From contig JBAYVE010000003.1 in NCBI GenBank assembly GCA_041674765.1, positions 2,040 through 66,039 on the forward strand: a DNA stretch of 64,000 bases, written 5' to 3'. Both the position numbers and the translations under genes were made by a program. The DNA is from Patescibacteria group bacterium. Lineage in GTDB: Bacteria > Patescibacteriota > UBA1384 > XYA2-FULL-43-10 > 1-14-0-10-43-13. This document shows, piece after piece, positions 20,482 through 38,391 of this stretch (its first letter is position 1; each line of letters starts with the position of its first letter). The notes under the pieces were generated by a model that ran no database searches, was not told the DNA's origin, and saw only the letters and a program-made list of their open reading frames with translations.

Positions 20482-21246
20482 TTATAGAATAGTTGAAACA
20501 GAATTGCTAACAATATCATCCTTGGCAACAATAATTATTTTAATATTTTCCATTTCCTCATTTTCAGTAAGCATTCTTTTCGTGAACTTCCTGATTTGGG
20601 TTATTAATTCAATTTCACAGATTAAAATAACTATCGGGAAATCTTCGCCAGTATTATCTTCCCAGCTGTTTGAAAAGTAAAAATCAAAGTAATTTTTAAT
20701 TCTTTTTCTAATTGAGTATGTTGGCAAGTTAGATTCGAATAACTCAACGAGGTAATGTTTTCTTTTGCAACCTTCCGCTTTTTCAATCACTAGATCAAAA
20801 GTGGTTTCGGTTAAAAAATAGTAATCCGAGCTGAGACTAGAAAAGCCGGAACTCGTTGTTACTTTATATGATACATTCTCATCACTCTTATTCCTAAAAT
20901 TAATAAAAATATCGCCGATCAATTGGCATTTGGTGATACAAGAGTCTTTGCGATCTTTTTCCCGATGCAGTTTCTTGAGCTGCTCTTTAGAACAATCAAT
21001 TAATGTCTTAATGAGTTTTATTCCGTTTGGTCCCATGTAGTAAACAGCCGGTTTAGTTCTCTCTATATATTTTTCGCAATAGTTTCTGTTTAGGTATTCT
21101 TTTTCTGTTAGGTCTTTAAGCCATTCGTTTATTAGTCTGTAATCTTTGTGTTTTAGGAGAGCTTGAATTTGGATCCGGTTTAGGAATCTGAAGTGATAGA
21201 TATATTTAAGTATTTCTTGTTGTTTGTTTGTTATTTTAGGTATCAT
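20482..21246 (-). CDS. replication-relaxation family protein (conjugative/mobilisable-element associated wHTH protein)
   Basis: N-terminus ITNKQQEILKYIYHFRFLNRIQIQALL matches the recalled replication-relaxation family pattern (LTxRQxEILxxLxRFRFLTxxQIxxL). Confidence 0.5.
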   Translation of the reverse strand: MIPKITNKQQEILKYIYHFRFLNRIQIQALLKHKDYRLINEWLKDLTEKEYLNRNYCEKYIERTKPAVYYMGPNGIKLIKTLIDCSKEQLKKLHREKDRKDSCITKCQLIGDIFINFRNKSDENVSYKVTTSSGFSSLSSDYYFLTETTFDLVIEKAEGCKRKHYLVELFESNLPTYSIRKRIKNYFDFYFSNSWEDNTGEDFPIVILICEIELITQIRKFTKRMLTENEEMENIKIIIVAKDDIVSNSVSTIL

Positions 21247-21285
21247 ATTTTTTTTGAGGGAGCATTACTTTTTTATTTTCCCTTA

Positions 21286-21321
21286 CACCTACCATACCAT
21301 ATGTATATGTAATGGTAAGTG
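21286..21321. promoter_or_regulatory. imperfect inverted repeat around a CATATGTATATG core, upstream of the replication-relaxation gene
   Basis: CACCTACCATAC-CATATGTATATG-TAATGGTAAGTG; the arms are near-complementary (about 10 of 12). Confidence 0.35.
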
Positions 21322-21361
21322 GACAATATTTTGTAATTTTGATCTTAAAATAGGTCTCTTT

Positions 21362-21383
21362 TTATCCTAGCCTGCTAGGATAA
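21362..21383. repeat. perfect 10-bp inverted repeat TTATCCTAGC-CT-GCTAGGATAA overlapping the stop of the T4CP-like gene
   Basis: Read directly from the sequence. No U-tract on either strand, so unlikely to be a plain intrinsic terminator. Candidate protein-binding or oriT-like palindrome. Confidence 0.5.
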
Positions 21384-24044
21384 TTCTGCAAACTGATTAG
21401 TCTCTTTTGAGGAGACTTTCTGCGCCTTCTTTACAGCCTTTTTCTTTGTAGTTTTTACCTTAACCTCTGGCTTAGGTTTACTGGATTCATCCAGCCGACC
21501 AGTAAAGAGTTTGTCCAAATACTCTTCGACTTCTTGTCGAGGAGTAGCATTGTGTTTTCTGGAATGTTTCAGGACTTCTTCTTTTATGATTCTACTTGGT
21601 TCATTATCCAGTGGTACAGTCACGCCAGAAAAGGCATTCTCACTTTTCTCGTTCGTGAGCTTCATAAAGAAGCGGTATGGAGGGAGATTTACGATATCTC
21701 CCTTTTCAACTTCCGGCTCCATGAAGGGCAGGATAAACTTCTCGTCATCAGGACTGGCCTTGAGACAAATAATTGTATTTGCATTGCCGGCGACAACTTT
21801 TAGAATATGCTGGTCTTCGACTTGAGCAATGTTTTGGTGAGAAGCAATCAAAGAAACATGGTATTTTCTGCCTTCTGAGGTAATCTCCGAAAACCGAGGG
21901 GTAGCAAAGTTTTGAAACTCATCAACATAAAGAAAGAAATCTCTGCGTTCTTTCTCCGGTATCTTTGTTCTCTGATAAGCGGCCATCCAGATGAGGGAAG
22001 TCAAAACAGTACCAAAGAAGAAGCTCATATCCTCGCCCAGATCGCCCTTGGATAGGTTTACAAGCAATATCTTGCCTTCATCCATAATTTGGCTAACGCT
22101 GACCGTACTCTTCTCCTGCAAAAGAATGTGGCGAGACATTTTGGTAGTAATGAAATTGCCTAGTCTCTGGGTTAGTGGAGCAGTCACGCTTGATAACTGC
22201 ATCGTGCCCAAAAGGGCGAATTCCTTATTCCAAAACTGTTTTAATACTGGATCCTTTAGATTAGCGGCAACTTTCTTTTGATAGCCTTTATCAGTCAACA
22301 ATCTTTGCAATGTAAAAAGGCTTGGATTTTCGGTATGTAATGCCGTAAGAGTTGTATTCCTTAAGATATGCTCCATTCTCGGACCCCAATATTCTTTGGC
22401 AGTAATTTTGGCAAACACACCCAAGACCGAGCTTGTGATCCATTCCTGCTCATCCTCTTTATCGGTAAATTTGATGCCAGGGGCAAGAATATTCAAACCA
22501 ATCGGCCATTGTCGATCAGAGGGGTCGAAAACTATTACATCTTCCTTTCTGTTTTCTGGAATGATTTCTAGGAGTTCCTGCAAGAGATCGCCATGCGGAT
22601 CGAAAACGGCCAAGCCTTTGCCGTTTAGCATGTCCTGATAGATGGCGTTTTTAAGCAAGGTAGTTTTGCCCATGCCAGTTTTACCGATGATATACATGTG
22701 CTTTTGGCGCTGTTCTAGTGTTAAACCAATTGGGACATTACCGTTATCGTATTTGTTCACACCAAAGATTACATCGTAATTATTATCGGTTTGGCGAAGT
22801 GATAAAGGTGCTGGCAGTTCTCTGCTTTTCACTCTCATTAGGTCAGGTGTATCGGAATCAGCCCGAAATGGGAAATGATAGAGGGCCGATATCTCCGAAG
22901 TCGAAAGAATCATCGATGATGAAACAAGATGATATTTAAACTGCCATAGTCTAATCCTCTGGCTAATGTTGCCGAGCAAATTTATTTTAGTAGTTATACT
23001 TTGTCCAGTTGAGTGCCTGTAACAAGCAAACGAAGAGATTAGTCCTTTCTGTCTTTCTTTTAATTGATGCTTATTTGTCACAATCAACGCCCTGATTGAG
23101 GTCTCAAAGAGCGGTTGTGAAAGCTTGGTCTTCACAAAGCCTTCAATTTCTTTTGATTCTGGAGTGGATGCAATCTTTGTCTTTGATCTTTCCGGCAATT
23201 TGCCTTCATTCCCTGTCACAAATTCAGCAGCAACAAGCAAAGGCATTACAGCGATTTTGGCAACGCTATCTAAAATATTTGCCAACACTGAAAAGAGATC
23301 GATCTTACCCTTACCACTTAGCCATTCGACAAACCGATCGCGTTTGATCGAAAGTTTTATTTCTTGGATTTTATCCCTAGTTAATCGTTGTTCTATTCGA
23401 TTTAACGGTTTTAAGACTATTTGGATGACGGCGAGTTCATCCTCTTCAAGTTTGCCCATATTATTTACCATATATGCCAACGGGTCATGCTTTTTTAGAT
23501 CTTTGTGTTCGCCGATTGGAAAGGCAAAATGTTTAGAGAGCTTAAAATCTAAAACTTTCACCTCTTTTTTCTCGATATCGGTTTCGACTAGATAATCGGA
23601 TGTTTTCTTAATCTGGATGCCTGGTATATAAGTGCGTAAATTAGTTTCGAAAGAGTTAACTAAATCATCAGGCATTCGAATTAAAAACCGGATGCCTTTT
23701 TCTTTGGTAGAAACAATCTCAAATGATGCTATTATTTGCCTAAGCAAAATTTTATCAATCCATGAGTTATTGTCCAAAAGATCGTTGATGAGATTAAAGA
23801 GCTGAGTAGTCGAGATCGCTGTAATTTCAGTTTCTTTAGGAGGAGTAATCTCCAAGAAAACAGATGATTCTTTGAGCTGGCGAATCAGAATTATTAATTT
23901 AAAAATGACCGCAAGGACAATCCAGGCGGACACAATATATGCAAGATAAACTAGTACTTGAATTGCAATTTGATCGAAATGGTATCGATTAAAAAGTTGA
24001 GTGATCTGATCTAAAGTTGGTGTTTCTGTTGGCGCTAAATGCAC
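21375..24044 (-). CDS. type IV coupling protein-like ATPase (VirD4/TraD/TraG-like; AAA_10-type)
   Basis: N-terminal TM helix. Walker A IIGKTGMGKTTL followed by AVFDPHGDL (cf. T4CP DPKGD), Walker B FFLYVDEFQNF, and SLIASHQN. 889 aa. Confidence 0.55.
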   Translation of the reverse strand: MHLAPTETPTLDQITQLFNRYHFDQIAIQVLVYLAYIVSAWIVLAVIFKLIILIRQLKESSVFLEITPPKETEITAISTTQLFNLINDLLDNNSWIDKILLRQIIASFEIVSTKEKGIRFLIRMPDDLVNSFETNLRTYIPGIQIKKTSDYLVETDIEKKEVKVLDFKLSKHFAFPIGEHKDLKKHDPLAYMVNNMGKLEEDELAVIQIVLKPLNRIEQRLTRDKIQEIKLSIKRDRFVEWLSGKGKIDLFSVLANILDSVAKIAVMPLLVAAEFVTGNEGKLPERSKTKIASTPESKEIEGFVKTKLSQPLFETSIRALIVTNKHQLKERQKGLISSFACYRHSTGQSITTKINLLGNISQRIRLWQFKYHLVSSSMILSTSEISALYHFPFRADSDTPDLMRVKSRELPAPLSLRQTDNNYDVIFGVNKYDNGNVPIGLTLEQRQKHMYIIGKTGMGKTTLLKNAIYQDMLNGKGLAVFDPHGDLLQELLEIIPENRKEDVIVFDPSDRQWPIGLNILAPGIKFTDKEDEQEWITSSVLGVFAKITAKEYWGPRMEHILRNTTLTALHTENPSLFTLQRLLTDKGYQKKVAANLKDPVLKQFWNKEFALLGTMQLSSVTAPLTQRLGNFITTKMSRHILLQEKSTVSVSQIMDEGKILLVNLSKGDLGEDMSFFFGTVLTSLIWMAAYQRTKIPEKERRDFFLYVDEFQNFATPRFSEITSEGRKYHVSLIASHQNIAQVEDQHILKVVAGNANTIICLKASPDDEKFILPFMEPEVEKGDIVNLPPYRFFMKLTNEKSENAFSGVTVPLDNEPSRIIKEEVLKHSRKHNATPRQEVEEYLDKLFTGRLDESSKPKPEVKVKTTKKKAVKKAQKVSSKETNQFAELS

Positions 24045-24318
24045 AATATATCACTTTCTCCCCATCCAATTTAGCAATTCCTTCTTATATTAGGACTATC
24101 ATAATTTTTCATACATTGCAAAGATACTCAAAAAAGAGCTTGCAATACCTATTTATCACAAAAGATATTAAATATTACTTAAGTAAAAATTAATAAGTTT
24201 TTAACCTTTTTTTAATATACTATGACAAACGCTTATTTCTTTAAGAAAGTGTTTATTAACCAACCGCAAAGTGATATGCTAAAGTTAGAAAATTATAAAA
24301 ATATTTGAGGTAACAATC

Positions 24319-26103
24319 ATGCAAAAATATGCCGTCAATCAATACCTGATCGGGAATATCCTAAGCGATGTGCAAATGGGACAGATCGCTATTCCTGAAA
24401 TTCAGCGTCCTTTTGTCTGGGATTCTGTAAAAGTCCGCGATCTGATGGACTCACTATACAAAGGTTTTCCTGTTGGCTATATCATTGCTTGGAAGAACCC
24501 TGATGTTCGTCTTAAAGATGGAACAATCTCATCCGGTAAAAAAGTGTTGATTGATGGACAGCAGCGTGTCACGGCTCTCAGGGCTGCTATTCTTGGCGAA
24601 AAAGTAGTTGATAAGGATTACAAAGAAGTCCGAATCCAGATTGCCTTCAATCCTTTAACCGAAGAGTTTGCTACCGTTACTCCCGCTATCAAGAAAGATA
24701 TTCAGTGGATCCCTGATATCTCTAGCTTTTTAAAGTATGAAGATATCTTCACCGTTGTAGAAGACTATTGTGATAAAAATACCGAGGCAAATCGCAAGCA
24801 AATTGGCGAGCGATTTCAAAAATTGCTTTCTATAAAAAATAAACAGATTGGTTTTATCGAGCTTATGGAAAGCCTCGATATCGAAACAGTAACTGAGATT
24901 TTTATCAGAATTAACTCTAAAGGCGTTGTTCTATCTCAGGCAGATTTCGCTATGAGCAAGATTGCTTCATCTGGCGACTTTGGTGTTAATCTTCGAAAGT
25001 TAATTGATTACTTCTGCCACTTAGCTAGAGAACCAAAGTTTTTCAAACAGATCAGTGAAAATGACTCAGAATTCATCAATACCGGATACCTTGAAAAGAT
25101 TTCATGGCTGAAAGATGCAAACGATGATTTATACGATCCTGATTACTCCGATGTTATCCGCGTTGCTTTCACCAAGAACTTCGAACGTGGGAAACTATCG
25201 GATTTGGTCAGTCTTCTTTCTGGTAGGAACTTTGAGACAAGAGAGTATGAGGAAGCAATTATTAAATCCACTTTCCAAAAACTTGAGAAAGGGCTTCTTG
25301 ATTTTACCAATCAGGCCAACTTCGAAAAATTTGTGATGATCATTAAGTCAACTGGATTCTGTTCCTCAAGCTTGATTAATTCTCAGAATGCACTCAACTT
25401 TGCTTACGCACTATATCTAAAGATGAGAGATCAGAATATTCATCAGGGCATTATAGAAAAAGTTGTTAAGCGATGGTTTGTGATGTCTGTGTTAACAGGG
25501 CGCTATTCCGGCTCTGCAGAATCAACATTTGATTTTGATATCAAGAATATTGTTAAACATGGGGCCGAAGCCTATTTGAAGGAAATCGAAGATTCAACTC
25601 TTTCTGACGGTTTTTGGAATGTTGGCTTAGTCCAAGAATTAGATAAATCGAGTAACTCGAATCCATTCTTAAACGCTTTCTGGGCGGCTCAAATTTACTT
25701 TAACGACGAAGGCTTTCTCTCTAGTGATATTAAAGTCAAGGACATGATTGAATATCGAGGTGATATTCATCATCTTTTCCCGAGGGATTATATCCGCAGA
25801 ACATATTCCTCCAAGAGCGATTACAATCAAATCGCAAATTTTGTCTATCTTCAGCAAGAAATCAACATTGCTATTGGCAACAAATCGCCGAAGGAATACT
25901 TTGGCGAGATTCTAAATCAGATAGAAACCGGCAAACACAAATACGGCAATATTATGGATAGAGACCATCTCAAAGAAAATTTAGCAAAACATTGTATTCC
26001 CGAATTAATTTTTGATGCTACTTCTGATAATTACATGGATTTTCTTGTTGCTCGTCGTAAATTGATGGCTAAGAAAATTGAGAAATATTATAAGAGTCTA
26101 TAA
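24319..26103 (+). CDS. DUF262 (ParB-like DGQQR) plus DUF1524 (HNH/His-Me finger) protein, GmrSD/type-IV-restriction-like
   Basis: N-terminal IPEIQRPFVW...LIDGQQRVTAL. C-terminal DIHHLFPRDY...N..K motifs. Confidence 0.8.
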   Translation: MQKYAVNQYLIGNILSDVQMGQIAIPEIQRPFVWDSVKVRDLMDSLYKGFPVGYIIAWKNPDVRLKDGTISSGKKVLIDGQQRVTALRAAILGEKVVDKDYKEVRIQIAFNPLTEEFATVTPAIKKDIQWIPDISSFLKYEDIFTVVEDYCDKNTEANRKQIGERFQKLLSIKNKQIGFIELMESLDIETVTEIFIRINSKGVVLSQADFAMSKIASSGDFGVNLRKLIDYFCHLAREPKFFKQISENDSEFINTGYLEKISWLKDANDDLYDPDYSDVIRVAFTKNFERGKLSDLVSLLSGRNFETREYEEAIIKSTFQKLEKGLLDFTNQANFEKFVMIIKSTGFCSSSLINSQNALNFAYALYLKMRDQNIHQGIIEKVVKRWFVMSVLTGRYSGSAESTFDFDIKNIVKHGAEAYLKEIEDSTLSDGFWNVGLVQELDKSSNSNPFLNAFWAAQIYFNDEGFLSSDIKVKDMIEYRGDIHHLFPRDYIRRTYSSKSDYNQIANFVYLQQEINIAIGNKSPKEYFGEILNQIETGKHKYGNIMDRDHLKENLAKHCIPELIFDATSDNYMDFLVARRKLMAKKIEKYYKSL

Positions 26104-29043
26104 ATGAAGATAACCGATTATCACGCTAAATATTTTGCTTATGAGCTCACCAAACGGTGTGCTTCTGATAGTTTGGAAAAGCTATCATCAACGCTCTCAA
26201 ACGCTCAAGTCGATTTAAACCCACATCAAATAGAGGCAGCTCTTTTTGCCTTCAAATCACCTTTATCAAAAGGCGCGATTCTGGCCGATGAAGTTGGTCT
26301 CGGGAAAACAATTGAAGCTGGACTAGTTCTTTCGCAAAAATGGGCCGAGAGAAAAAGAAAGATACTTCTAATTGTGCCATCCAGTCTTAGAAAGCAGTGG
26401 AATTCAGAGCTCCAAGAAAAGTTTTTCCTTCCTTCAATCATTCTTGAGGCAAAATCATTTAATCAATATATCAAGGACGGTAATCTCAATCCTTTTGATC
26501 AAGATAGCGCCATTATAATTTGTTCCTATCATTTTGCTAAAGCGAAATCACCTTACATCAAGCAAACATCCTTTGATCTGGTTGTTATTGATGAGGCTCA
26601 TAGATTGCGCAATGTATATAAAACAAGCAATAAAATTGCCCGTGAAATAAAAGCGGCCGTTCAAGATTATCCAAAACTGTTACTGACGGCAACTCCGCTT
26701 CAAAACTCGTTACTTGAATTGTATGGATTAACTAGCATCATTGATGATCATATCTTCGGTGATATCAATAGTTTCAAGGCTAACTACGCCAAGGTCTCCA
26801 GAGAACAAGAGACTTACGAAAGCGAACTTGGCTTAGTTACACCTCGGCAAGAAATGTTTGAAGATTTACGAAATCGTCTTAAGCCGATTTGTATTCGCAC
26901 ACTTCGCAGACAGGTATTAGAATATATCAATTACCGTGATCGTAAACCAATTACACAAGACTACATTCCGACCGATCAAGAGATTAAATTGTATGACGGT
27001 ATGTCAGATTATTTGCAACGAGAAAAACTCTACGCTTTGCCATTCAGTCAGCGCCAACTCATGACTCTTATTTTGCGCAAACTTCTTGCATCGTCATCCT
27101 TCGCAATTGCCAGCACCTTGAATGGACTTGTTCATAAACTTGAGAGATTAGAGGATGAAATAAGAGCAGAGGCAGTTTCTCAAGATAGCGATATGACTTT
27201 AGGTCTTGAGGATAACTATGAAGCATATTCCGATACAGCTGATGAATGGATCGATGACGAAGAGGATGATGGTGATAGCGACGAAAAAGAAAAGACAAAA
27301 TTCACTACCAAAGATATTCCTGCCATTCGCGAAGAGAAAAAAGACTTGGAAAAATTCAGGGATCTAGCGAAAGCCATATTCAAGAACTCAAAGGGAGAAT
27401 CTTTGCTAATTGCCTTGGAAAAAGGCTTTGAGATGACCGAAACGCTCGGTGCACAGAAGAAAGCAGTAATTTTTACAGAATCTAAAATCACCCAAGACTA
27501 CCTTTGGAAACTATTATCGGATAGTGGCTACAAAGATAAAATTCTTCTGTTTAATGGCTCGAACAATGATCAGAAATCAAAAGATATTTACGCCGAATGG
27601 CTCAAGGCCAATCAAGTTAGTGATAAAATAACCGGCTCAAAAACAGCCGATCTTCGGGCGGCTCTCGTTGATTATTTCAAAACAGACGCAGAGATTATGA
27701 TTGCTACTGAGGCAGCAGCCGAAGGCATTAATTTACAATTCTGTTCACTCGTTATTAACTATGATCTTCCATGGAACCCGCAAAGAATCGAACAGAGAAT
27801 AGGCCGCTGTCATCGCTACGGCCAGAAACATGATGTTGTAGTTGTAAACTTCGTCAATCGTAAGAATGCCGCCGATCAAAGGGTTTACGAGCTTCTCGAT
27901 CAGAAATTCCAGCTTTTCAAAGGCGTGTTCGGAGCAAGCGATGAAGTACTTGGTTGCATTGAGTCAGGCGTAGACTTTGAAAAAAGAATTGCCGCAATTT
28001 ATCAATCTTGCCGCACCGAAGAAGAGATCAACTCGGCATTTGACGCGTTGCAATCTGAAATGGATGAATCAATTCAAGAAGGTATTCGTGGCGCAAAAGA
28101 AAAACTATTGGAAAACTTTGATGCCGATGTACATGAAAAACTAAAAATAAATTTGCGTGAAAGCAAGGCATTTCTGGAAACTTATGAAAAATGGCTTTGG
28201 GACATTTCTCAATATTATCTTGGCGATAAAGCAAATTATGCTGAGAACGAATACTCTTTCACACTTAAACAGAATCCTTTTCCAAGAGAAGAGATTGAGG
28301 AAGGTCCTTATAAAATTGGTAAAAATATAGATGATGCTCATATTTACCGCCCAGGTCATCCCCTCGCCGAAAGAATACTACGAGAAGTAAAATCGCGAGA
28401 GCTTTCTGATGCTGAGGTAACTTTTGATTATTCTAATCATGGTCAGATCATTTCCCCAATAAAAGAACTGGTCGGTACTAGTGGCATTATACAGGTGTCT
28501 GAATTATCAATTGATTCTTTTGAAACAGAAGACAATATTTTAGTTACTGCCGTGAAAGATAATGGTGATCTAATTGAAGAAGATATCGCTAAAAAATTAT
28601 TCCTTCTTGACGCTGAGATAAATAACAGCAATATAGATTTAGTAAACGATGGAATCGGTGATAAGGAACAAGAAAAGGCGAATACTCTCACGGCGAGTAT
28701 TGCAGAACGCAACAGCGAGTTCTTTGACGACGAGGTGGACAAGCTCGACAAATGGGCGGAAGATATAAAAAAGAGTCTTGAGATAGAACTTAAGCGTATG
28801 GATATCGATATTAAAGCAGCTAAAACGAATGCTAAAAAGGTTCTAAATCTTCAGGAAAAAATCAAAATCCAGCGTGAAATAAAGGATTCGGAAAAGAAAA
28901 GAAACGACTTACGGCAGAAGCTTTATCAGGCCCAAGATCAAGTGGACACCAAAAAAGAAGAACTACTTGAGAAAGTTGAGGCTCAACTGAAACAGAAAAC
29001 CACACTTACAAAATTATTCACTCTAAAATATAAGGTAATTTAA
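26104..29043 (+). CDS. SNF2-family helicase/ATPase with a C-terminal coiled-coil
   Basis: Motifs I LADEVGLGKTIEAG, II VVIDEAHRLRN, III LLTATPLQNSLLEL, V-VI ...NYDLPWNPQRIEQRIGRCHRYGQ. Start abuts the stop of the upstream gene. Confidence 0.85.
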   Translation: MKITDYHAKYFAYELTKRCASDSLEKLSSTLSNAQVDLNPHQIEAALFAFKSPLSKGAILADEVGLGKTIEAGLVLSQKWAERKRKILLIVPSSLRKQWNSELQEKFFLPSIILEAKSFNQYIKDGNLNPFDQDSAIIICSYHFAKAKSPYIKQTSFDLVVIDEAHRLRNVYKTSNKIAREIKAAVQDYPKLLLTATPLQNSLLELYGLTSIIDDHIFGDINSFKANYAKVSREQETYESELGLVTPRQEMFEDLRNRLKPICIRTLRRQVLEYINYRDRKPITQDYIPTDQEIKLYDGMSDYLQREKLYALPFSQRQLMTLILRKLLASSSFAIASTLNGLVHKLERLEDEIRAEAVSQDSDMTLGLEDNYEAYSDTADEWIDDEEDDGDSDEKEKTKFTTKDIPAIREEKKDLEKFRDLAKAIFKNSKGESLLIALEKGFEMTETLGAQKKAVIFTESKITQDYLWKLLSDSGYKDKILLFNGSNNDQKSKDIYAEWLKANQVSDKITGSKTADLRAALVDYFKTDAEIMIATEAAAEGINLQFCSLVINYDLPWNPQRIEQRIGRCHRYGQKHDVVVVNFVNRKNAADQRVYELLDQKFQLFKGVFGASDEVLGCIESGVDFEKRIAAIYQSCRTEEEINSAFDALQSEMDESIQEGIRGAKEKLLENFDADVHEKLKINLRESKAFLETYEKWLWDISQYYLGDKANYAENEYSFTLKQNPFPREEIEEGPYKIGKNIDDAHIYRPGHPLAERILREVKSRELSDAEVTFDYSNHGQIISPIKELVGTSGIIQVSELSIDSFETEDNILVTAVKDNGDLIEEDIAKKLFLLDAEINNSNIDLVNDGIGDKEQEKANTLTASIAERNSEFFDDEVDKLDKWAEDIKKSLEIELKRMDIDIKAAKTNAKKVLNLQEKIKIQREIKDSEKKRNDLRQKLYQAQDQVDTKKEELLEKVEAQLKQKTTLTKLFTLKYKVI

Positions 29044-29046
29044 GCC

Positions 29047-30822
29047 ATGACTAACAACAAACAAAAACTTGAACTAACATGGATCGGTAAAAATAATCCT
29101 GAGTATGATATCTCCAATATTGAGCCAAGAATATTGGAAGAAAATTCTGAACTTTCCAATTGCACGAATGATCCAAATACCGAAAACATGCTTATCCATG
29201 GCGATAACCTTTTGGCTCTCAAGGCGCTTCTCCCTGAATACGAAGGCAAGGTGAAGTGTATATACATTGATCCACCATACAACACTGGCAATGCTTTTGA
29301 ACATTATGACGATAGTGTTGAGCATAGCACATGGCTGTCGCTAATGAAGCCAAGATTGGAGTTACTAAAAATGCTTTTAAGGGAAGATGGTATTTTGTGT
29401 GTTCAGATAAATGATGAAGAACAAGCGTATTTAAAAGTTTTGCTTGATGAGATTTTTGGACGATCAAATTTAATTAATCAAGTAAGTGTAAAAATGAAAC
29501 AAACCTCCGGGGCAAGCGGAGGAGGTGAAGATAAACGCCTCAAGAAAAATATTGAGTTCATTTTAAATTACGCCAAGAATTACCAGGTATTCCCTAAGTT
29601 TAATGAGGTACTTGAAGAGGAAAATCTTTTTGAATTGATAAATGAAATGAGAGAAGAAGGTAAGAGCTGGAAATATACCAGAGTTATTATGTCTAGGGGG
29701 GATCGTTCATTTTTCTGTGAAGTCAAAGATGGTTCAGGGATGCCCATTAAGATTTATAAACATACTGATGTAAAGATAAATACCATTCCTGAATTAATGA
29801 AAAATGATGGACTAACCGAAGAGGAAACATATTTTAAATACTTCGACAACATATTCAGGGATACCAATGCTCAAAGCTCAATTAGAGCAAGAGTGATGGA
29901 AGCTACAAAAGGTGAAGGAGATTTCTTTAGTATTGAATATGTTCCTCGTTCTGGTAAGTCAAAAGGTCAGATTACTACATCGTTCTACAAAGGTAATAAC
30001 AGGGATTTGATTGCTTGGTTAAAAGATGTAGCAGTAAAGAAAAAAAATTCAATTGTAAAACTGGAAAAACTTGGAACATATTGGGATGGATTTCCATTAA
30101 ACAATTTAACCAAGGAGGGAGGGGTGCTATTCCCTAACGGCAAAAAACCAGAAGCACTAATTCAAAGAATATTAGAATTAACAACTCAAAAGGACGACTT
30201 GGTTATAGACTCCTTTCTCGGTTCTGGTACGACTGTTGCAGTAGCGCATAAGATGGGGCGAAAATATATAGGAATTGAAATGGGCAATCATGCTTATACC
30301 CACTGCAAAGTTCGACTTGATAAAGTAGTTGACGGTTCAGATCAAGGTGGTGTAAGCAAGGTGGTAGATTGGCGTGGCGGCGGAGCTTACAAATTTTATG
30401 AATTAGCGCCAAGTTTTATTATGAAAGATGAATTCGGTAATCCAGTAATTGATATTTTTTATAATGATGCAAAACTTGTTAAGGCTATGTGCAAGCTTAT
30501 GAATTTTACATATCAACCAAGCTCAACTGAATATTGGAAACACGGAATAGGCCAAGGCAAAAATTACTTATATGTTACAACTCAGCTTTTAACTAGCGGA
30601 ATGATTCAACAAATTGCTGCCCACCTTGCTGAAGGAGAGTCACTTATTGTCTGTCCTAAAAAGTTTGAGCCGGGTGCAGATAAAATTGATGACCGAATCA
30701 CGATCAAGAAGATACCACAGTCTATACTGAAAGCTTGCCATTTTGGAAAAAAGGAATATCTATTACCTATTAAAGAATCTGCTATAGAAGAAAATGAGTC
30801 AGAAGAAGAGGAGGTTGAATAA
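29047..30822 (+). CDS. mod: Type III restriction-modification methyltransferase (Mod), N6-adenine/N4-cytosine beta-class
   Basis: Motif IV IYIDPPYNTGN precedes motif I DSFLGSGTT. Overlaps or abuts the Res gene. Confidence 0.85.
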   Translation: MTNNKQKLELTWIGKNNPEYDISNIEPRILEENSELSNCTNDPNTENMLIHGDNLLALKALLPEYEGKVKCIYIDPPYNTGNAFEHYDDSVEHSTWLSLMKPRLELLKMLLREDGILCVQINDEEQAYLKVLLDEIFGRSNLINQVSVKMKQTSGASGGGEDKRLKKNIEFILNYAKNYQVFPKFNEVLEEENLFELINEMREEGKSWKYTRVIMSRGDRSFFCEVKDGSGMPIKIYKHTDVKINTIPELMKNDGLTEEETYFKYFDNIFRDTNAQSSIRARVMEATKGEGDFFSIEYVPRSGKSKGQITTSFYKGNNRDLIAWLKDVAVKKKNSIVKLEKLGTYWDGFPLNNLTKEGGVLFPNGKKPEALIQRILELTTQKDDLVIDSFLGSGTTVAVAHKMGRKYIGIEMGNHAYTHCKVRLDKVVDGSDQGGVSKVVDWRGGGAYKFYELAPSFIMKDEFGNPVIDIFYNDAKLVKAMCKLMNFTYQPSSTEYWKHGIGQGKNYLYVTTQLLTSGMIQQIAAHLAEGESLIVCPKKFEPGADKIDDRITIKKIPQSILKACHFGKKEYLLPIKESAIEENESEEEEVE

Positions 30823-30823
30823 T

Positions 30824-33673
30824 ATGAAACCAGATCAAGCATTGAAATATCTGAATGGTGCAATGAGTCTGAGAGAGCCACAGACAAAAAGCCTAGAACT
30901 TTTCGCCCGTTACCTAGAGTCATCTGCCGGCCAGAAGCTACTCGCACGGATGAAGTATAAAAATAAGGATGATATTACTAACCTATTGTCCGAAAGCAAA
31001 GACTACTTCAGCGCTATTCCTGAAGCACGAGAATTTGATGAATTTGAACGTGCCTTTCCGGCATATACTTTTGCACTCGCAACAGGCGTAGGAAAGACGA
31101 GACTTATGGGAGCTTTCGTCGCTTATCTGTATCTGGTTTATAATATTCAGCATTTTCTTATTGTTGCTCCCAACCTCACAATTTACCGGAAGCTCTTTGA
31201 TGATTTTAGTAAATCTAATAATCCGAAATATGTCTTCAAGGGTATTCAAGAGATAAATACAAACACGGCTAAAGTCATCACTACAGATAACTATACTCAG
31301 CAACGAAACGCTTCACTTTTCGGCAATCAAATTGAAATCAATATTTTTAATGTCCAACAATTTGCTCAAAAAGATATGACAAATGAGCGCGGAATTACTA
31401 AAGCATGGGAGACTGCAGGAGAGTCATACTTTGACTATCTAAAAGAACACGATGATTTGGTAGTAATGCTCGATGAAGCTCATCACTATCATGCAGACGC
31501 AGCTTTGGGCGCATTAGATATACTCAATCCTCTTTTTGGGTTAGAGATGACCGCAACTCCATACTTGGGCACCCAAGGAAATGGCGGCGGAAATGCACGC
31601 CAAATTAGAATGAAAAATGTTTTGTATTCCTATAATCTTGGTGATGCTATTCGTGGCAAACTAGTAAAAGACCCATGGGTCGGCACCGAGGCCGATGTCG
31701 ATTTTAGTCAGTTTGCGGCCGATTCCATAGAGACAGATGCACGGAAACTTCAACTTGCTGCCTTTTTTCATGAACGAGCTAAAGTTGCCTTAAAAGAATA
31801 TGCACTGGAAAATAACATGCCAGTCGTGAAGCCAGTTATGCTCGTAGTAGCAAAAGATACAACTCATGCCGGTGAATTACGAGCCTTGATAGATAGCGAT
31901 GATTTTCGCAGAGGAGAATTCAAAGGTAAAGTAATTGAGATACACACAAAACTCCGAGGAGACGAGGCTGATGATAATATTGAAAAGTTAATCTCTCTAG
32001 AACATCCCGATAATCTAGTCGAGATCGTTATCCATGTAAACATGCTTAAAGAGGGCTGGGATGTGACAAATGTTTACACTATTGTGCCTTTGCGCGAAGC
32101 TGCTGCCATGATTCTTACGGAACAAACGATCGGCCGTGGTTTGCGATTACCATACGGGGAGCGCACAGGTGTTCCGTTAGTGGACAGATTAGTGCTTGTC
32201 GCTCACGAACAATTTTCAAAGGTTGTTGCACTTGCGAAGGATTCACCGCTTATTCAAGGACAAGTAGAGCAGATTACCGGACAAGAGGTTAAAGAGATAA
32301 AAATACTCACAGAGATTCAACCAGTTGTTCTCGACACTGTCAGGGGTGAAATAGAGCACAACGAGATAGTGATGCAAGCTGTCTCAGAAAAAGTAGATGA
32401 AATTGTTTCTAAGCTTCCACAGATTGAAAGTATGGATGAATCTGTGAAGTCTAAGTTTATCGAAAATAAAAAAGAAGAAATCATCAACGACCTAGCTAAG
32501 GAAACAATTAAGAGTAATACCTTCTCTAATTTCCATGGACAAGAATCAAAAGCGCCAACAGAGCTATCGTTTGGTCCCGATACACTTTTTGGCTCGTTTA
32601 GCGCTGAGGCAAAAGACGAACTTTCTAAAATTGCCCAAGAATCCGCTAAAGTAATAGAAAAAAGAAACATCCCTATTCCCCGATTAATGCTCACCCCGCA
32701 TTTTGGCGAGCTCTTTATCGCAGACTTTGATCTTGACACTAGTATAGGAATATTGCGTACATACACAAATGAGCGTGCGATCCTCGAGGAACAGCTGCAA
32801 AACAACCCAGATCAGAATCTTTTTGGCGAAGAAGTTCCTGGCCGCAGGGTCACTGAAGTGACTAGAGTGAGTAGTTTTGGTTCTCAAAGTCGGCAGACTC
32901 CTCAGAGTACTCTTATAGCTGCTCTACTTGATTTTCCATTAGTAGATTATGACGATGTAGATCAAAAGCCTCTACTCTTGAAATTAGCGGATCAGGCAGT
33001 TGCATATTATCGCAAAAAAGCGATTGATGATGATAATTTAGCCCTGATAGTTGAAAGTAACGCGCACTCAATTGCCGGTGATATCTATAAGCAGATTTTG
33101 GCACATAAAGAGTTGCGATCAGAAAGCTATATTGAATCAGAAGTACGAGAACCCAAACCATACTTGGAGCAATACAATATCTCATTATCTTTTGGAGAAA
33201 AATCAGTTTCCCTTGATTCTCAACTGAACACTTTTAGCGCAAAGTTAGCATATGGCAACTTCCAAAAGGCATGTCATGCGATGTACCGCTTTGATTCTTC
33301 TGATGAAGTTCGTTTAGCCTATCTTCTCGATAATGATCAATCCATAGAAGATTGGCTTCGTCCGGCTCCAAATCAGTTTGAGGGTCTGTATTGGCGTGAT
33401 TCAGAAGGTAGATCCGATCACCGCTATGAACCAGATTTTGTCGTTGAACTCGAGAAAGAAATAGTGATGATTGAGGTAAAGCCTGACGCTGAAATCAGCA
33501 CGCCCGATGTACAAGCAAAGAAACAGACTGCTGAAAAATACTGTGATGTAGTGAATAGAAATATTGGCAAGTTTGGAATCGTAAAATCATGGCGTTATAT
33601 AATTGCTCCGACCAGTAGAATAACAATCCACTCAACAATCGATGGACTACTAAAAGACCAAAGTTCAATTTAG
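30824..33673 (+). CDS. res: Type III restriction endonuclease Res subunit (SF2 helicase plus C-terminal PD-(D/E)xK nuclease)
   Basis: Walker A ATGVGKTRLM, DEAH VVMLDEAHHY, C-terminal EPDFVVELEKEIVMIEVKP. Start set at ATG 30824 (RBS GAGGAGG) rather than the track's 30794. Confidence 0.8.
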   Translation: MKPDQALKYLNGAMSLREPQTKSLELFARYLESSAGQKLLARMKYKNKDDITNLLSESKDYFSAIPEAREFDEFERAFPAYTFALATGVGKTRLMGAFVAYLYLVYNIQHFLIVAPNLTIYRKLFDDFSKSNNPKYVFKGIQEINTNTAKVITTDNYTQQRNASLFGNQIEINIFNVQQFAQKDMTNERGITKAWETAGESYFDYLKEHDDLVVMLDEAHHYHADAALGALDILNPLFGLEMTATPYLGTQGNGGGNARQIRMKNVLYSYNLGDAIRGKLVKDPWVGTEADVDFSQFAADSIETDARKLQLAAFFHERAKVALKEYALENNMPVVKPVMLVVAKDTTHAGELRALIDSDDFRRGEFKGKVIEIHTKLRGDEADDNIEKLISLEHPDNLVEIVIHVNMLKEGWDVTNVYTIVPLREAAAMILTEQTIGRGLRLPYGERTGVPLVDRLVLVAHEQFSKVVALAKDSPLIQGQVEQITGQEVKEIKILTEIQPVVLDTVRGEIEHNEIVMQAVSEKVDEIVSKLPQIESMDESVKSKFIENKKEEIINDLAKETIKSNTFSNFHGQESKAPTELSFGPDTLFGSFSAEAKDELSKIAQESAKVIEKRNIPIPRLMLTPHFGELFIADFDLDTSIGILRTYTNERAILEEQLQNNPDQNLFGEEVPGRRVTEVTRVSSFGSQSRQTPQSTLIAALLDFPLVDYDDVDQKPLLLKLADQAVAYYRKKAIDDDNLALIVESNAHSIAGDIYKQILAHKELRSESYIESEVREPKPYLEQYNISLSFGEKSVSLDSQLNTFSAKLAYGNFQKACHAMYRFDSSDEVRLAYLLDNDQSIEDWLRPAPNQFEGLYWRDSEGRSDHRYEPDFVVELEKEIVMIEVKPDAEISTPDVQAKKQTAEKYCDVVNRNIGKFGIVKSWRYIIAPTSRITIHSTIDGLLKDQSSI

Positions 33674-33683
33674 GAGTTTTTAT

Positions 33684-34001
33684 ATGAGTGAAACAGTAGT
33701 AGAAGGTGAATCCGATGATGAAGAGGAAGACGACTATTGGCCAAAAACTAAAGATGAGGCTATAGAATCATTCATGTGTTTAGATTTTACCGATAGAGAT
33801 TTTGAGATTATTGAGGAATGTGCCAAGAAAAATATTGATAAGATTCTGCCTGATTTTGAGGAATCAATAAGATTGGCCTGTGGGTTTGATTCTGGAAATA
33901 AAAAATTATTAGAAGTATGCGGTGATGCAAACATGGACCCACATGATGCTTCACGAGTTATAATGCTCGCAATTTGGGATTACTTTCATTTCACGCAATA
34001 A
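33684..34001 (+). CDS. small highly acidic protein (N-terminus ESDDEEEDDYW), unknown function
   Basis: 105 aa starting 11 nt after the res stop. Very Asp/Glu-rich. Confidence 0.4.
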   Translation: MSETVVEGESDDEEEDDYWPKTKDEAIESFMCLDFTDRDFEIIEECAKKNIDKILPDFEESIRLACGFDSGNKKLLEVCGDANMDPHDASRVIMLAIWDYFHFTQ

Positions 34002-34258: not shown

Positions 34259-34579
34259 ATGGATAAAGAATTAGAGAAAAAACTTGATTCTATAACTGCT
34301 GAGTTATCTAGAGTTAACGGCGTTTTAGAAAGAATAAATGAGCAAGTATATGGAAAGTATTATTCTGAGACACCAGAAGGAAGCTTTGATGTGCTTTTGG
34401 ATGATGCCAAAAAGCTAGCAGAAGAGGCCGGTTATGTCTCTCCTGGACTATTCCAACGCAAATTTAGGATTGGGTATGCTCGTTCTGCTTCATTACTTGA
34501 TTTATTAATTGAGAAAAAAATTGTTGAGCCACGGGACGGCGCAAAACCATGTAAATATATTATGGGCCAGGAAGAATAA
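34259..34579 (+). CDS. coiled-coil plus FtsK-gamma-like winged-helix DNA-binding protein
   Basis: C-terminal SPGLFQRKFRIGYARSASLLDLLIEKKIVEPRDGAKPCKYI, compared with the FtsK gamma consensus LLQRRLRIGYNRAARLIEQME..GIVS...GSKPREVL. Confidence 0.5.
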   Translation: MDKELEKKLDSITAELSRVNGVLERINEQVYGKYYSETPEGSFDVLLDDAKKLAEEAGYVSPGLFQRKFRIGYARSASLLDLLIEKKIVEPRDGAKPCKYIMGQEE

Positions 34580-34581
34580 AT

Positions 34582-37815: not shown

Positions 37816-37837
37816 TAATAATAAAACTACAATAACC

Positions 37838-38386: not shown

Positions 38387-38391
38387 CAAAT

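What the first reader, a model, noticed from the sequence alone, without database searches (positions are those of the whole stretch)
24319..33673. Four-gene fused defense operon: DUF262/DUF1524 (GmrSD-like), SNF2 helicase, Type III Mod, Type III Res
All four genes abut or overlap (26103/26104, 29043/29047, 30822/30824), so they are almost certainly one transcript. Type III mod-res pairs are common. An SNF2 helicase and a GmrSD-like type IV enzyme placed directly upstream in the same operon is not standard. It partly recalls DISARM class 1 (SNF2 DrmD plus adenine MTase), but without an evident DUF1998 or PLD partner. This may be a hybrid in which the Type III enzyme is assisted by an SNF2 translocase and backed up by a modification-dependent nuclease.
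Basis: partly seen in the sequence, partly recalled or inferred. Interest (0 to 1): 0.7.

Follow-up and report, generated by a model that had tools for sequence, protein, structure and literature searches.

The report
SNF2-partnered Type III restriction system plus add-on
Three of the four genes (an SNF2 motor protein, a Type III methylase and its nuclease) form a widespread, apparently unnamed three-gene restriction module found from candidate-phyla bacteria to E. coli, while the fourth (a BrxU-like enzyme predicted to cut modified DNA) is an independent add-on that happens to sit next to it here.

Summary
The four ORFs and their abutting junctions are real, and the domain calls hold. The "four-gene fused operon" splits into two units.

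**Core trio: SNF2–Mod–Res**
- All 37 SNF2-anchored genome loci with at least 8 kb downstream carry Mod and Res on the same strand.
- 39 of 43 Res-anchored metagenome loci carry the SNF2 gene upstream.
- All 72 full trios keep the order SNF2, Mod, Res.
- The loci span more than 15 phyla, including Salmonella IncFIB plasmids and 30 of 5,426 complete E. coli genomes.
- The SNF2 protein is DrmD/RapA-like but scores below NCBIfam's DrmD cutoff.
- The locus has no DrmA, DrmB or DrmC, no YprA helicase, no DUF499 ATPase and no PglZ. It is therefore not DISARM, ARMADA, Hma/MANTIS or BREX.

**Add-on: the DUF262 gene**
- It is a BrxU-like GmrSD-family gene.
- It lies on a discrete ~2 kb segment that is missing from a syntenic relative.
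- Its closest homologues have unrelated neighbours.
- The SNF2–Mod junction is a hotspot for embedded defence genes (36 of 72 loci).

**Operon argument**
- Tight gene spacing continues for about 15 genes, to 43317. Adjacency alone does not define a four-gene unit.

**Verdict**
- This is a new variant of a known kind. I found no name for the trio in the literature searched. Interest is moderate.

The parts
24319..26103 (+). A GmrSD/BrxU-family gene for a predicted Type IV, modification-dependent nuclease. It has an N-terminal DUF262 domain (DGQQR at residues 79-83), a helical middle region and a C-terminal His-Me finger (DIHH at 482-485, N503, N507, N516). It is an accessory gene, not part of the conserved trio.
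   Evidence: - Pfam GmrSD_N, E 1.2e-30.
- PADLOC HEC-05, E 3.4e-29.
- AF2 model with pLDDT 84. Foldseek's best match is BrxU 7p9k at E 8e-11, followed by DndI 9jfl.
- The motif residues are invariant in alignment A1.
- Its homologues have different neighbours.
24105..26101 (.). A ~2 kb segment carrying the intergenic region and the DUF262 gene. It is present in the window, L077 and L078 and absent from the syntenic relative L079.
   Evidence: By blastn, window 20657-24104 matches L079 6-3450 and window 26102-29021 matches L079 3563-6482.
26104..29043 (+). A DrmD/RapA-clade SWI2/SNF2 ATPase and the first gene of the conserved trio. Walker A (GLGKT, 65-69), DEAH (163-166) and motif VI (QRIGRCHRYGQ) are intact. 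It has no counterpart of RapA's N-terminal ~130 residues. Its C-terminal domain is a beta-sheet with a long coiled-coil hairpin (~710-979).
   Evidence: - Family hits.
- Motifs.
- Query residues 18-225 align to RapA residues 134-343.
- The AF2 C-terminal region has pLDDT 70-90. Foldseek's best match is RapA 6bog, but the model is poor overall (pLDDT 60).
- Linkage to Mod and Res.
29047..30822 (+). A Type III Mod methyltransferase of the beta class, with DPPY at residues 75-78 ahead of FLGSG at 390-394.
   Evidence: - Pfam N6_N4_Mtase, E 2.5e-43.
- PADLOC MTase_III, E 9.7e-136.
- Its PDB relatives are the Type III Mods 6k0w and EcoP15I 4zcf_A.
- Motifs.
29381..30201 (+). The variable central region of Mod, which I take to be the target-recognition domain. 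It cannot be aligned at the DNA level even with relatives whose flanks are 77-90% identical.
   Evidence: - The blastn alignments break at window 29380/30145 (L077), 29477/30202 (L078) and 29458/30194 (L079).
- Many tblastn matches to Mod cover only residues ~351-576.
30824..33673 (+). A Type III Res subunit. It has an SF2 ATPase (GVGKT, DEAH) and a C-terminal PD-(D/E)XK nuclease (P-D ... E-V-K near the C-terminus).
   Evidence: - Pfam ResIII, plus a weak TnsA-like nuclease hit.
- PADLOC REase_III covers both halves.
- Its only PDB relative by sequence is EcoP15I Res, E 1.5e-4.
- Motifs.
- The family has 450 representatives at 50% clustering with E <= 1e-30.

Best explanation
Window 26104-33673 encodes a three-gene, Type III-like restriction-modification system. 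Its Mod and Res subunits have a near-obligate third partner, a DrmD/RapA-clade SNF2 ATPase.

**Proposed working (inferred unless marked otherwise)**
1. Mod is a beta-class DPPY methyltransferase with a swappable recognition domain. It recognises a short site, probably asymmetric, and methylates host DNA.
2. On unmodified foreign DNA, Mod loads Res (SF2 ATPase plus PD-(D/E)XK nuclease), which cuts. This is the classical Type III scheme.
3. The SNF2 protein is a dsDNA translocase that is probably required for methylation, for restriction or for both. It might deliver or activate the Mod/Res complex on DNA, or clear bound proteins. Other methylase-based defences depend on an ATPase in this way: ArmA in ARMADA and MtsA in MANTIS.

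**What is shown here**
- The gene linkage, the fixed gene order and the intact catalytic motifs.
- The biochemical role of the SNF2 protein is not shown.

**The upstream gene (24319-26103)**
- It is a separate, self-contained BrxU-like Type IV enzyme, predicted to cut modified phage DNA.
- It was inserted between the element's coupling-protein gene and the trio. This fits the known habit of defence genes nesting in or beside methylase-based systems.

**Setting**
- The whole array is cargo of a conjugative or mobilisable element in a Patescibacteria genome.
For: **Linkage**
- All 37 SNF2-anchored genome loci with at least 8 kb downstream have Mod and Res on the same strand.
- 39 of 43 Res-anchored metagenome loci have the SNF2 gene upstream.
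- All 72 full trios are in the order SNF2, Mod, Res.

**Breadth**
- The loci come from more than 15 phyla.
- The trio is on Salmonella, Klebsiella and Cupriavidus plasmids and in 30 of 5,426 complete E. coli chromosomes.

**Type III identity**
- The family and PDB matches for Mod and Res are to Type III enzymes.
- All ATPase, methyltransferase and nuclease motifs are intact.
- The Mod recognition region is swapped between close relatives.

**Precedents for the SNF2 role**
- ArmA Walker A and B mutants abolish ARMADA defence.
- MANTIS methylation needs its ATPase.
- SWI2/SNF2 ATPases are widely coupled to adenine methylases on mobile elements (PMC5512222).

**Independence of the DUF262 gene**
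- Searches show this.
- GmrSD-like genes embedded in Hma, BREX and Type I RM systems are described in bioRxiv 10.1101/2024.01.29.577857.

**Mobile setting**
- A T4CP-like gene and a relaxase-like gene lie next to the array.
Against: - No experiment exists for any member that I could find.
- 4 of 43 Res-anchored loci have this Mod-Res clade with no SNF2 gene anywhere in the fetched locus, which includes 5-10 kb upstream. Mod-Res may therefore work without it.
- SNF2 divergence tracks Mod and Res only weakly (Spearman 0.34 and 0.35), whereas Mod and Res track each other at 0.72. This argues against a tight, co-evolving protein interface. It would also fit a looser role exerted through the DNA.
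- The SNF2 AF2 model is poor overall (pLDDT 60).
- Transcription was not measured, and the promoter scan found fewer sites than in shuffled sequence.
- My literature search covers open-access papers and bioRxiv only. REBASE or subscription journals may already describe the trio.
Confidence: 0.68

Rival explanations
1. One reading: an integrated four-gene hybrid in which the GmrSD-like nuclease, SNF2, Mod and Res act as one machine.
For: - The four genes abut, and the first two are contiguous stop-to-start.
- The closest relatives, L077 and L078 (SNF2 protein 98% and 93% identical), keep the same four-gene arrangement.
- GmrSD-like genes turn up near trios in a handful of other loci: L035, L063, L085, L088, L107 and L148.
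Against: - A DUF262 homologue is present in only 1 of 41 SNF2 loci with upstream room, and in that locus it lies downstream.
- L079 lacks the gene, with a clean breakpoint.
- Homologues of the gene at 66-88% identity lie in unrelated neighbourhoods: beside an EcoRI-type methylase plus a DUF262-HNH gene, beside a Qat system, or beside unknown genes.
- BrxU-type enzymes work as single proteins.
- Equally tight spacing continues for about 11 more genes.
Confidence: 0.07
2. A reduced or divergent DISARM class 1 or ARMADA system. SNF2 would be DrmD/ArmA, Mod would be the DrmMI/ArmB analogue, and Res would replace the DrmAB/YprA helicase as effector. The system would work by a DISARM-like rather than a Type III-like mechanism.
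For: - The best family match for the SNF2 protein is DISARM_DrmD_b. It scores 688 bits and aligns over nearly the whole model, positions 21-867 of 868 (PADLOC result).
- The order SNF2, methylase, helicase-nuclease is shared with DISARM class 1 and ARMADA II.
Against: - The score is below NCBIfam's curated cutoff (688 against 950).
- No DUF1998 or YprA helicase is found in the genes scanned between about 11.8 and 49.8 kb of the window.
- The only PLD-like gene (44218-44943, minus strand) lies 10 kb away, with a DrmC E-value of only 3.5e-4.
- The methylase is PF01555 with DPPY, not PF13659 with NPPW.
- Mod and Res match Type III models and the EcoP15I subunits.
Confidence: 0.12
3. The module chiefly serves the mobile element. 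The SNF2-Mod pair would methylate the element's own DNA on entry, as the anti-restriction protein DarB does for phage P1, and Res would act mainly as an addiction or exclusion function. Host anti-phage immunity would be secondary.
For: - The trio sits beside T4CP and relaxase genes here and in L002, L003, L023, L048 and L079.
- 32 of 50 plasmid hits are on plasmids typed as conjugative.
- SWI2/SNF2-adenine methylase pairs are typical of conjugative elements and phages, with DarB as the archetype (PMC5512222).
Against: - A complete Res with intact ATPase and nuclease motifs is kept in nearly every locus.
- Mod and Res co-evolve, as in true R-M pairs.
- The trio also sits in chromosomal islands with integrases.
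- Only 1 hit was found in viral contigs.
- This reading overlaps with the best explanation more than it excludes it.
Confidence: 0.1
4. The SNF2 gene is an independent single-gene defence or housekeeping gene (RapA-like RNA polymerase recycling) that merely lies next to an ordinary Type III system.
For: - The SNF2 protein is closest to RapA among solved structures.
- SNF2 phylogeny is only weakly coupled to that of Mod and Res.
- 4 of 43 Mod-Res loci lack the SNF2 gene.
Against: - Linkage of 37 of 37 and 39 of 43 loci, in a fixed order across more than 15 phyla, is far beyond chance neighbourhood.
- The protein has no counterpart of RapA's N-terminal ~130 residues.
- It travels on plasmids and genomic islands.
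Confidence: 0.03

Closest known systems
Classical Type III restriction-modification (EcoP15I/EcoP1I; Mod2Res1)
   Same: - Mod is a beta-class methyltransferase (DPPY, then the recognition domain, then FxGxG).
- Res combines an SF2 ATPase with a C-terminal PD-(D/E)XK nuclease.
- mod comes immediately before res.
- The recognition domain is variable.
- The EcoP15I subunits are PDB relatives: the Mod subunit is the second-best match, and the Res subunit is the only match.
   Different: - A third gene, a DrmD-like SNF2 ATPase, is linked upstream in about 91-100% of loci.
- Res is only remotely similar to EcoP15I Res (E 1.5e-4).
- The SNF2-Mod junction is a hotspot for embedded genes.
DISARM class 1 (DrmD, DrmMI, DrmA, DrmB, DrmC)
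   Same: - The SNF2 protein's best family match is DrmD_b.
- An SNF2 gene sits directly upstream of an adenine-type methylase and then a helicase-like effector.
   Different: - There is no DrmA, no DrmB (DUF1998) and no DrmC.
- The methylase belongs to a different Pfam family.
- The DrmD_b score is below the curated cutoff.
ARMADA type II (ArmA SNF2, ArmB methylase, ArmC YprA helicase-nuclease, ArmD UvrD-like)
   Same: - It combines a DrmD-like SNF2 protein, an adenine methylase and a helicase-nuclease effector.
- Its SNF2 ATPase has been shown to be essential for defence.
   Different: - The effector here is a Type III Res, not a YprA/DUF1998 protein.
- There is no UvrD-like fourth gene.
- The methylase motif is DPPY rather than NPPW.
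Hma / Gao_RL / MANTIS and BREX type 3 (methylase plus ATPase plus helicase-nuclease; BrxHII is a RapA-like SNF2)
   Same: - Each is a methylase-based system with an extra ATPase.
- RapA-like SNF2 architecture, including a C-terminal beta-domain with a coiled-coil insert, is described for BrxHII and seen in the confident part of the model.
- Other defence genes often embed in these operons, including ABC ATPases and GmrSD-like genes.
   Different: The window has no DUF499/BrxC ATPase, no PglZ and no DUF1156-type methylase. PADLOC HmaA and BrxHII hits are much weaker than the DrmD hit.
BrxU / GmrSD / HEC-05 (for gene 1 only)
   Same: - It has a DUF262 N-terminal domain with DGQQR, a helical linker and a C-terminal His-Me nuclease.
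- Its length is about 590 aa.
- Its best structural match is BrxU.
- It lies beside a methylase-based system, as BrxU does in BREX.
   Different: - Sequence identity to BrxU in the structural alignment is only 16-17%.
- Pfam DUF1524 is not detected.
- Substrate preference is unknown.

Membership tests
Type III restriction-modification | The Mod subunit is a beta-class N6/N4 methyltransferase with motif IV (DPPY) ahead of the recognition domain and motif I (FxGxG). | tested here: met
   DPPY lies at residues 75-78 and FLGSG at 390-394. Pfam PF01555 and PADLOC MTase_III both match. PDB relatives are 6k0w and 4zcf_A.
Type III restriction-modification | The Res subunit has an SF2 helicase-like ATPase and a C-terminal PD-(D/E)XK nuclease. 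| tested here: met
   GVGKT, DEAH and PD...EVK are present. REase_III model PDLC03648 covers both halves. EcoP15I Res is the only PDB hit.
Type III restriction-modification | It is a two-gene system: mod immediately precedes res and no other subunit is needed. | tested here: inconclusive
   mod and res are 1 nt apart. A third gene (SNF2) is linked in 37 of 37 and 39 of 43 loci. Whether it is required cannot be tested here.
Type III restriction-modification | It hemimethylates an asymmetric site and cleaves only between inversely oriented unmethylated sites. | not testable with these tools
   This needs methylome sequencing and cleavage assays.
DISARM (class 1) | The core triplet is present: DrmA helicase, DrmB (DUF1998) and DrmC (PLD). 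| tested here: not met
   No DUF1998 or DrmA hit is found in the operon or its neighbours. The only PLD-like gene lies 10 kb away on the other strand, with DrmC E 3.5e-4.
DISARM (class 1) | DrmD SNF2 helicase, as an equivalog-level match. | tested here: not met
   NF038318 DISARM_DrmD_b scores 688 bits against a curated cutoff of 950, and NF038317 scores 254 against 610. The protein is related but not a member by NCBI's threshold.
DISARM (class 1) | DrmMI adenine methylase of Pfam family PF13659. | tested here: not met
   The methylase is PF01555.
ARMADA | A YprA-family helicase with DUF1998 (ArmC), and in type II a UvrD-like ArmD. | tested here: not met
   Res hits ResIII and a TnsA-like nuclease only. 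No UvrD-like gene is in the array.
Hma / MANTIS / BREX-related | A DUF499/BrxC-type AAA+ ATPase with a DUF1156-type methylase, and PglZ in BREX. | tested here: not met
   None of these appears in the Pfam scans of the array and its flanks.
MADS | MAD6, MAD7 and MAD8 are mandatory, and the system has a Type I-like methylase (MAD2). | tested here: not met
   The only hit is a mad8 match (E 1.2e-18) to the T4CP-like ATPase on the opposite strand. The 'mads1' label in E. coli loci applies only to a small HTH gene upstream of the SNF2 gene, and the window has no such HTH gene.
GmrSD / BrxU Type IV enzymes (gene 1) | An N-terminal DUF262 (ParB-like NTPase) domain with the DGQQR motif. | tested here: met
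   Pfam GmrSD_N, E 1.2e-30. DGQQR lies at residues 79-83.
GmrSD / BrxU Type IV enzymes (gene 1) | A C-terminal DUF1524 His-Me finger nuclease. | tested here: inconclusive
   Pfam gives no hit even at E 10. An invariant D482/H484/H485/N503/N507/N516 motif is present, and Foldseek matches BrxU over the full length at E 8e-11.
GmrSD / BrxU Type IV enzymes (gene 1) | It cleaves modified DNA (for example hmC or glucosyl-hmC). | not testable with these tools
   This needs phage or biochemical assays.

The most novel reading that the evidence does not exclude
The SNF2-Mod-Res trio is a distinct, still unnamed class of ATP-dependent restriction system. In it the SNF2 translocase is a true third subunit that changes how a Type III enzyme works. 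For example, it could load or activate the methylase on DNA, as MtsA does in MANTIS. Or it could replace passive one-dimensional sliding with driven translocation. Either change would alter site-orientation rules and self-protection. The system's high conservation and wide horizontal spread, from Patescibacteria to enterobacterial plasmids, would make it a significant and overlooked barrier to gene flow.
Probability: 0.35. Interest if true: 0.65.

Novelty: new variant of a known kind. Interest (0 to 1): 0.5.

Why it matters
- If the SNF2 protein is a required subunit, this is a third architecture for Type III-like restriction, beside the classical Mod2Res1 and the single-chain Type ISP enzymes.
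- It would also be another case of a methylase that depends on a separate ATPase. That theme has just emerged for MANTIS, ARMADA, DISARM class 1 and BREX.
- The family is common:
  - 450 Res cluster representatives at 50% identity with E <= 1e-30.
  - More than 15 phyla.
  - Conjugative IncFIB plasmids of Salmonella.
  - 30 complete E. coli genomes.
- It can therefore be tested directly in E. coli.
- Current annotation misses the unit. PGAP calls its genes only "SNF2-related protein", "site-specific DNA-methyltransferase" and "DEAD/DEAH box helicase".
- The SNF2|Mod junction is a hotspot for embedded genes, so it is a ready source of candidate defence genes.
- For this window specifically, the result corrects a four-gene reading to a three-gene system plus one add-on.

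Tried and rejected
1. **DISARM class 1.** Rejected. There is no DrmA, DrmB or DrmC, the methylase family is wrong, and DrmD_b scores below its cutoff.
2. **The PLD-like gene at 44218-44943 as a displaced DrmC.** Rejected. It lies 10 kb away on the opposite strand, GNAT genes lie between, and the DrmC E-value is only 3.5e-4.
3. **MADS.** E. coli annotation labels the small HTH gene upstream of the SNF2 gene 'mads1'. Rejected. MADS has no SNF2 component and is defined by MAD6-8. The HTH gene is found in a minority of loci and not in the window.
4. **Hma, MANTIS/Gao_RL and BREX type 3.** Rejected, because there is no DUF499/BrxC ATPase and no PglZ.
5. **ARMADA.** Rejected, because Res has no YprA or DUF1998 region.
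6. **Promoter and terminator scan as an operon test.** Uninformative: 35 promoter-like sites against 53 expected, and no convincing + strand terminator inside the array.
7. **Element boundaries.** There is no tRNA gene in the window and there are no convincing direct repeats. The boundaries remain undefined.
8. **Full-length AF2 model of the SNF2 protein.** It is poor (pLDDT 60). Only the C-terminal ~290 residues are usable, so the Foldseek match to RapA is supportive only.
9. **Viral contig scan.** It gave a single hit, so the trio is not notably phage-borne at this sensitivity.
10. **Literature.** Nine searches and 12 papers gave no description of an SNF2-Mod-Res trio. One search on 'DrmD' alone returned mostly unrelated acronyms.

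Full report
**1. The observation**

The four + strand ORFs exist as described: 24319-26103 (594 aa), 26104-29043 (979 aa), 29047-30822 (591 aa) and 30794/30824-33673. The junctions are:
- TAA then ATG with no gap, at 26103/26104.
- A 3-nt gap at 29043/29047.
- A 1-nt gap at 30822/30824, with GGAGG 9 nt upstream of ATG 30824.

The family assignments hold:
- Gene 1 is GmrSD_N/DUF262 (E 1.2e-30).
- Gene 2 is SNF2-rel_dom plus Helicase_C.
- Gene 3 is N6_N4_Mtase.
- Gene 4 is ResIII.
- PADLOC gives HEC-05 (gene 1), DrmD at 685 bits (gene 2), MTase_III at 452 bits (gene 3) and REase_III at 409 bits (gene 4).
- The Res C-terminus matches the nuclease end of the REase_III model.

All catalytic motifs are intact:
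- SNF2: GLGKT and DEAH.
- Mod: DPPY at residue 75, before FLGSG at residue 390. This is the beta-class order.
- Res: GVGKT, DEAH and a C-terminal PD...EVK.
- DUF262 protein: DGQQR.

The organism is a Patescibacteria MAG. An identical SNF2 protein is on record under that name.

The tight packing is not specific to these four genes. The ORF after Res (33684) has its GGAG overlapping the Res stop codon. About 15 co-directional ORFs run to 43317 with gaps of 32 bp or less. Abutment alone therefore cannot define a four-gene functional unit.

**2. Gene 1**

Pfam detects only the N-terminal DUF262 domain. The C-terminal 374 residues give no hit even at E 10. The sequence does carry a His-Me-type motif, RGDIHHLFP...NQIANFVY...EINIAIGNK. 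Its D482, H484, H485, P488, N503, N507 and N516 are invariant in 23 homologues. An AF2 model (pLDDT 84) has BrxU, the GmrSD-family Type IV enzyme 7p9k, as its best PDB match over the full length (E 8e-11). The phosphorothioate-sensing DndI follows. BrxU is also the only meaningful sequence hit in the PDB. The gene is a BrxU-like GmrSD-family member.

**3. What is conserved elsewhere**

I anchored on the SNF2 protein and fetched 70 loci from one-genome-per-species contigs. Among loci with a strong SNF2 match and at least 8 kb downstream, 37 of 37 have Mod and Res homologues downstream on the same strand.

I then anchored on Res in metagenome contigs, where matches ranged from 34% to 84% identity. 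Of 43 loci with at least 4 kb upstream of Mod, 39 have the SNF2 gene upstream. The other four have Mod-Res with no SNF2 gene anywhere in the fetched locus.

Across all material, 72 loci have full-length copies of all three genes, always in the order SNF2, Mod, Res. Hosts span:
- many Patescibacteria lineages;
- Ignavibacteria, Bacteroidota, Desulfobacterota and Gammaproteobacteria;
- Bdellovibrionota, Nitrospirota, Omnitrophota and Elusimicrobiota;
- Synergistota, Bacillota and others.

The Res clade has 450 representatives (50% clustering) with E <= 1e-30 among 1.84 billion proteins.

The trio also occurs in cultured bacteria:
- On conjugative plasmids of Salmonella, Klebsiella, Providencia, Cupriavidus and Rhizobium.
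- In 30 of 5,426 complete E. coli chromosomes, in one case in an integrase-bearing island at tRNA-Sec.
- The Salmonella and E. coli proteins are 46% (SNF2), 39% (Mod) and 46% (Res N-terminal half) identical to the window's.
- PGAP names them only 'SNF2-related protein', 'site-specific DNA-methyltransferase' and 'DEAD/DEAH box helicase'.

**4. The DUF262 gene is not part of that unit**

- Homologues of window gene 1 are found in only 1 of 41 SNF2 loci with upstream room, and in that locus downstream.
- The gene's own closest homologues (88%, 74% and 66% identity) sit beside an EcoRI-type methylase plus a DUF262-HNH gene and a Qat system, beside the same methylase cassette in a different chromosomal context, or beside an unknown gene.
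- Within the same element family, L077 and L078 (SNF2 protein 98% and 93% identical) have the DUF262 gene. L079 (87%) has the T4CP gene directly next to the SNF2 gene, and a DUF3800 gene between SNF2 and Mod.
- DNA alignment places the difference precisely. Window 20657-24104 and 26102-29021 align with L079, and window 24105-26101 has no counterpart.

**5. Architecture of the trio**

- The SNF2-Mod junction is a hotspot. In 36 of 72 loci more than 500 bp lies between these genes, against 12 of 72 for Mod-Res.
- Sampled inserts are typical defence-island genes:
  - ABC-type AAA_15/21/23 ATPases of about 750 aa, in four loci;
  - Schlafen/AlbA_2 plus HATPase_c_4 proteins;
  - RhuM, DUF3644 and HerA.
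- A DUF3800 gene fills the same junction in L079.
[quoted passage not shown] There, ABC ATPases and GmrSD-like genes (HEC-05 = BrxU) are the commonest embedded genes (bioRxiv 10.1101/2024.01.29.577857; PMC11232893).
- The central part of Mod (about 29381-30201) cannot be aligned even between relatives whose flanks are 77-90% identical. This fits exchange of the recognition domain.
- Pairwise identities show that Mod and Res co-evolve (Spearman 0.72). The SNF2 protein is the most conserved (median 57%, against 47% and 42%) and tracks its partners only weakly (0.34 and 0.35). It is reshuffled against Mod-Res pairs.

**6. The SNF2 protein**

- Its best family match is NCBIfam DISARM_DrmD_b, aligned over nearly the whole model. 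The score is 688 bits against a curated cutoff of 950. Weaker matches are to DrmD, DpdE, RapA, BrxHII, HmaA and ZorD.
- RapA is the closest solved structure by sequence. The alignment starts at RapA residue ~134 and query residue 18. The N-terminal ~130 residues of RapA therefore have no counterpart, which makes a RapA-like role at RNA polymerase unlikely. That last step is my inference.
- The AF2 model is poor in the ATPase core (overall pLDDT 60) but confident at the C-terminus. That region is a beta-sheet domain with a ~110-residue coiled-coil hairpin inserted before the last strand. It fits the C-terminal domain described for RapA and BrxHII (PMC12839542). Foldseek ranks RapA first.

**7. 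Comparison with named systems**

- *DISARM class 1* requires DrmA, DrmB (DUF1998) and DrmC (PLD), plus DrmD and a PF13659 methylase. None of the core genes is present, and the methylase is PF01555. The lone PLD-like gene at 44218-44943 (minus strand) is distant and only weakly DrmC-like.
- *ARMADA II* has a DrmD-like SNF2 (ArmA), an NPPW methylase, a YprA/DUF1998 effector and a UvrD-like protein. The effector here is a Type III Res.
- *Hma, MANTIS and the BREX-related systems* need a DUF499/BrxC ATPase, which is absent.
- *MADS* is defined by MAD6-8 and has no SNF2 component. The 'mads1' label in E. coli refers to a small HTH gene upstream of the SNF2 gene. That gene is found in a minority of loci and not in the window.
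- *Mod and Res* are Type III by motif order, family models and PDB relatives (6k0w, EcoP15I).
- A general pairing of SWI2/SNF2 ATPases with adenine methylases on phages, plasmids and conjugative transposons has long been noted (PMC5512222).
- I found no paper describing or naming this SNF2-Mod-Res trio. The search cannot see REBASE or most subscription journals.

**8. Most likely mechanism**

*Shown here:*
- a conserved, ordered three-gene unit with intact catalytic motifs;
- a swappable Mod recognition region;
- carriage on mobile elements.

*Inferred:*
- Mod marks self DNA at a short site.
- Res, loaded by Mod, cuts unmodified DNA as in Type III systems.
- The SNF2 translocase is needed for methylation, for restriction or for both. 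This follows from ArmA, whose Walker mutants abolish ARMADA defence, and from MANTIS, where an ATPase must load the methylase.
- The weak SNF2 co-evolution with its partners and the ~9% of loci that lack it limit confidence in a strict subunit role.
- Gene 1 is an independent BrxU-like enzyme that would cover phages with modified DNA. That complementarity has been proposed for BrxU within BREX.

**9. Verdict**

The interesting object is a widespread, apparently unnamed Type III variant with an SNF2 partner. The window holds one ordinary member of it, with a GmrSD-family gene inserted alongside. I rate it a new variant of a known kind, with moderate interest of 0.5. It can be tested directly with the E. 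coli and Salmonella copies.

Noticed in passing
window 46810-49827 (+): The leucyl-tRNA synthetase (1005 aa) has a NUDIX domain (PF00293, residues 433-542, E 3.5e-12) next to its editing domain. The LeuRS on a related Patescibacteria contig (L071) is 857 aa, and no NUDIX domain is listed for it.
   Followed up: no
window 34259-39867 (+): A small FtsK_gamma-domain protein (34259-34579) and a DUF2779/RecB-like protein (38392-39867) flank a variable slot. The window has a 1077-aa SF2 helicase plus a 195-aa ORF there. L077 has a 1004-aa PHP plus SMC/AAA_21 protein, and L078 has a 926-aa protein with no Pfam hit. DUF2779 also follows Res in L032, L048 and L056. This may be a second cargo hotspot or a separate system.
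   Followed up: partly
window 19054-43317: The defence genes appear to be cargo of a conjugative or mobilisable element. The evidence is DUF3768 (19054-19368), a Replic_Relax protein (20482-21246, minus strand) and an 889-aa T4CP/TraD-like ATPase (21375-24044, minus strand), followed by about 15 tightly packed + strand genes. I could not define the element's boundaries: there is no tRNA gene and no clear flanking repeats.
   Followed up: partly
L071 10001-14247; L073 10001-14858: Close homologues of window gene 1 (88% and 74% identity) head a recurring cassette made of a 594-aa DUF262 gene, an EcoRI_methylase-family gene, sometimes a small or DUF6602 gene, and a 365-aa DUF262-HNH gene. This may be a separate methylase-linked system built around two DUF262 proteins.
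   Followed up: no
window 44218-44943 (-); L071 8805-9533: A 241-aa PLD-like protein gives weak MkoC and DrmC hits. A PLDc_2 protein of similar size (242 aa) lies just upstream of the DUF262 homologue in L071. I did not test whether the two are orthologous or linked to DUF262.
   Followed up: no
L160 6232-6432; L161 8792-8992; L162 13814-14014; also L041, L053, L082, L138: In proteobacterial and some other trios, a 66-aa HTH gene lies directly upstream of the SNF2 gene and overlaps its start in the Salmonella and E. coli copies. RefSeq labels it 'mads1'. It is a probable regulator of the trio. The window and its Patescibacteria relatives lack it.
   Followed up: partly
window 33684-34001 (+): A 105-aa ORF with no family hit is translationally coupled to the Res stop codon. 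ORFs of similar size follow Res in L077 (102 aa) and L078 (103 aa), and the DNA there aligns with the window. It has only one weak match among the other trio loci.
   Followed up: no
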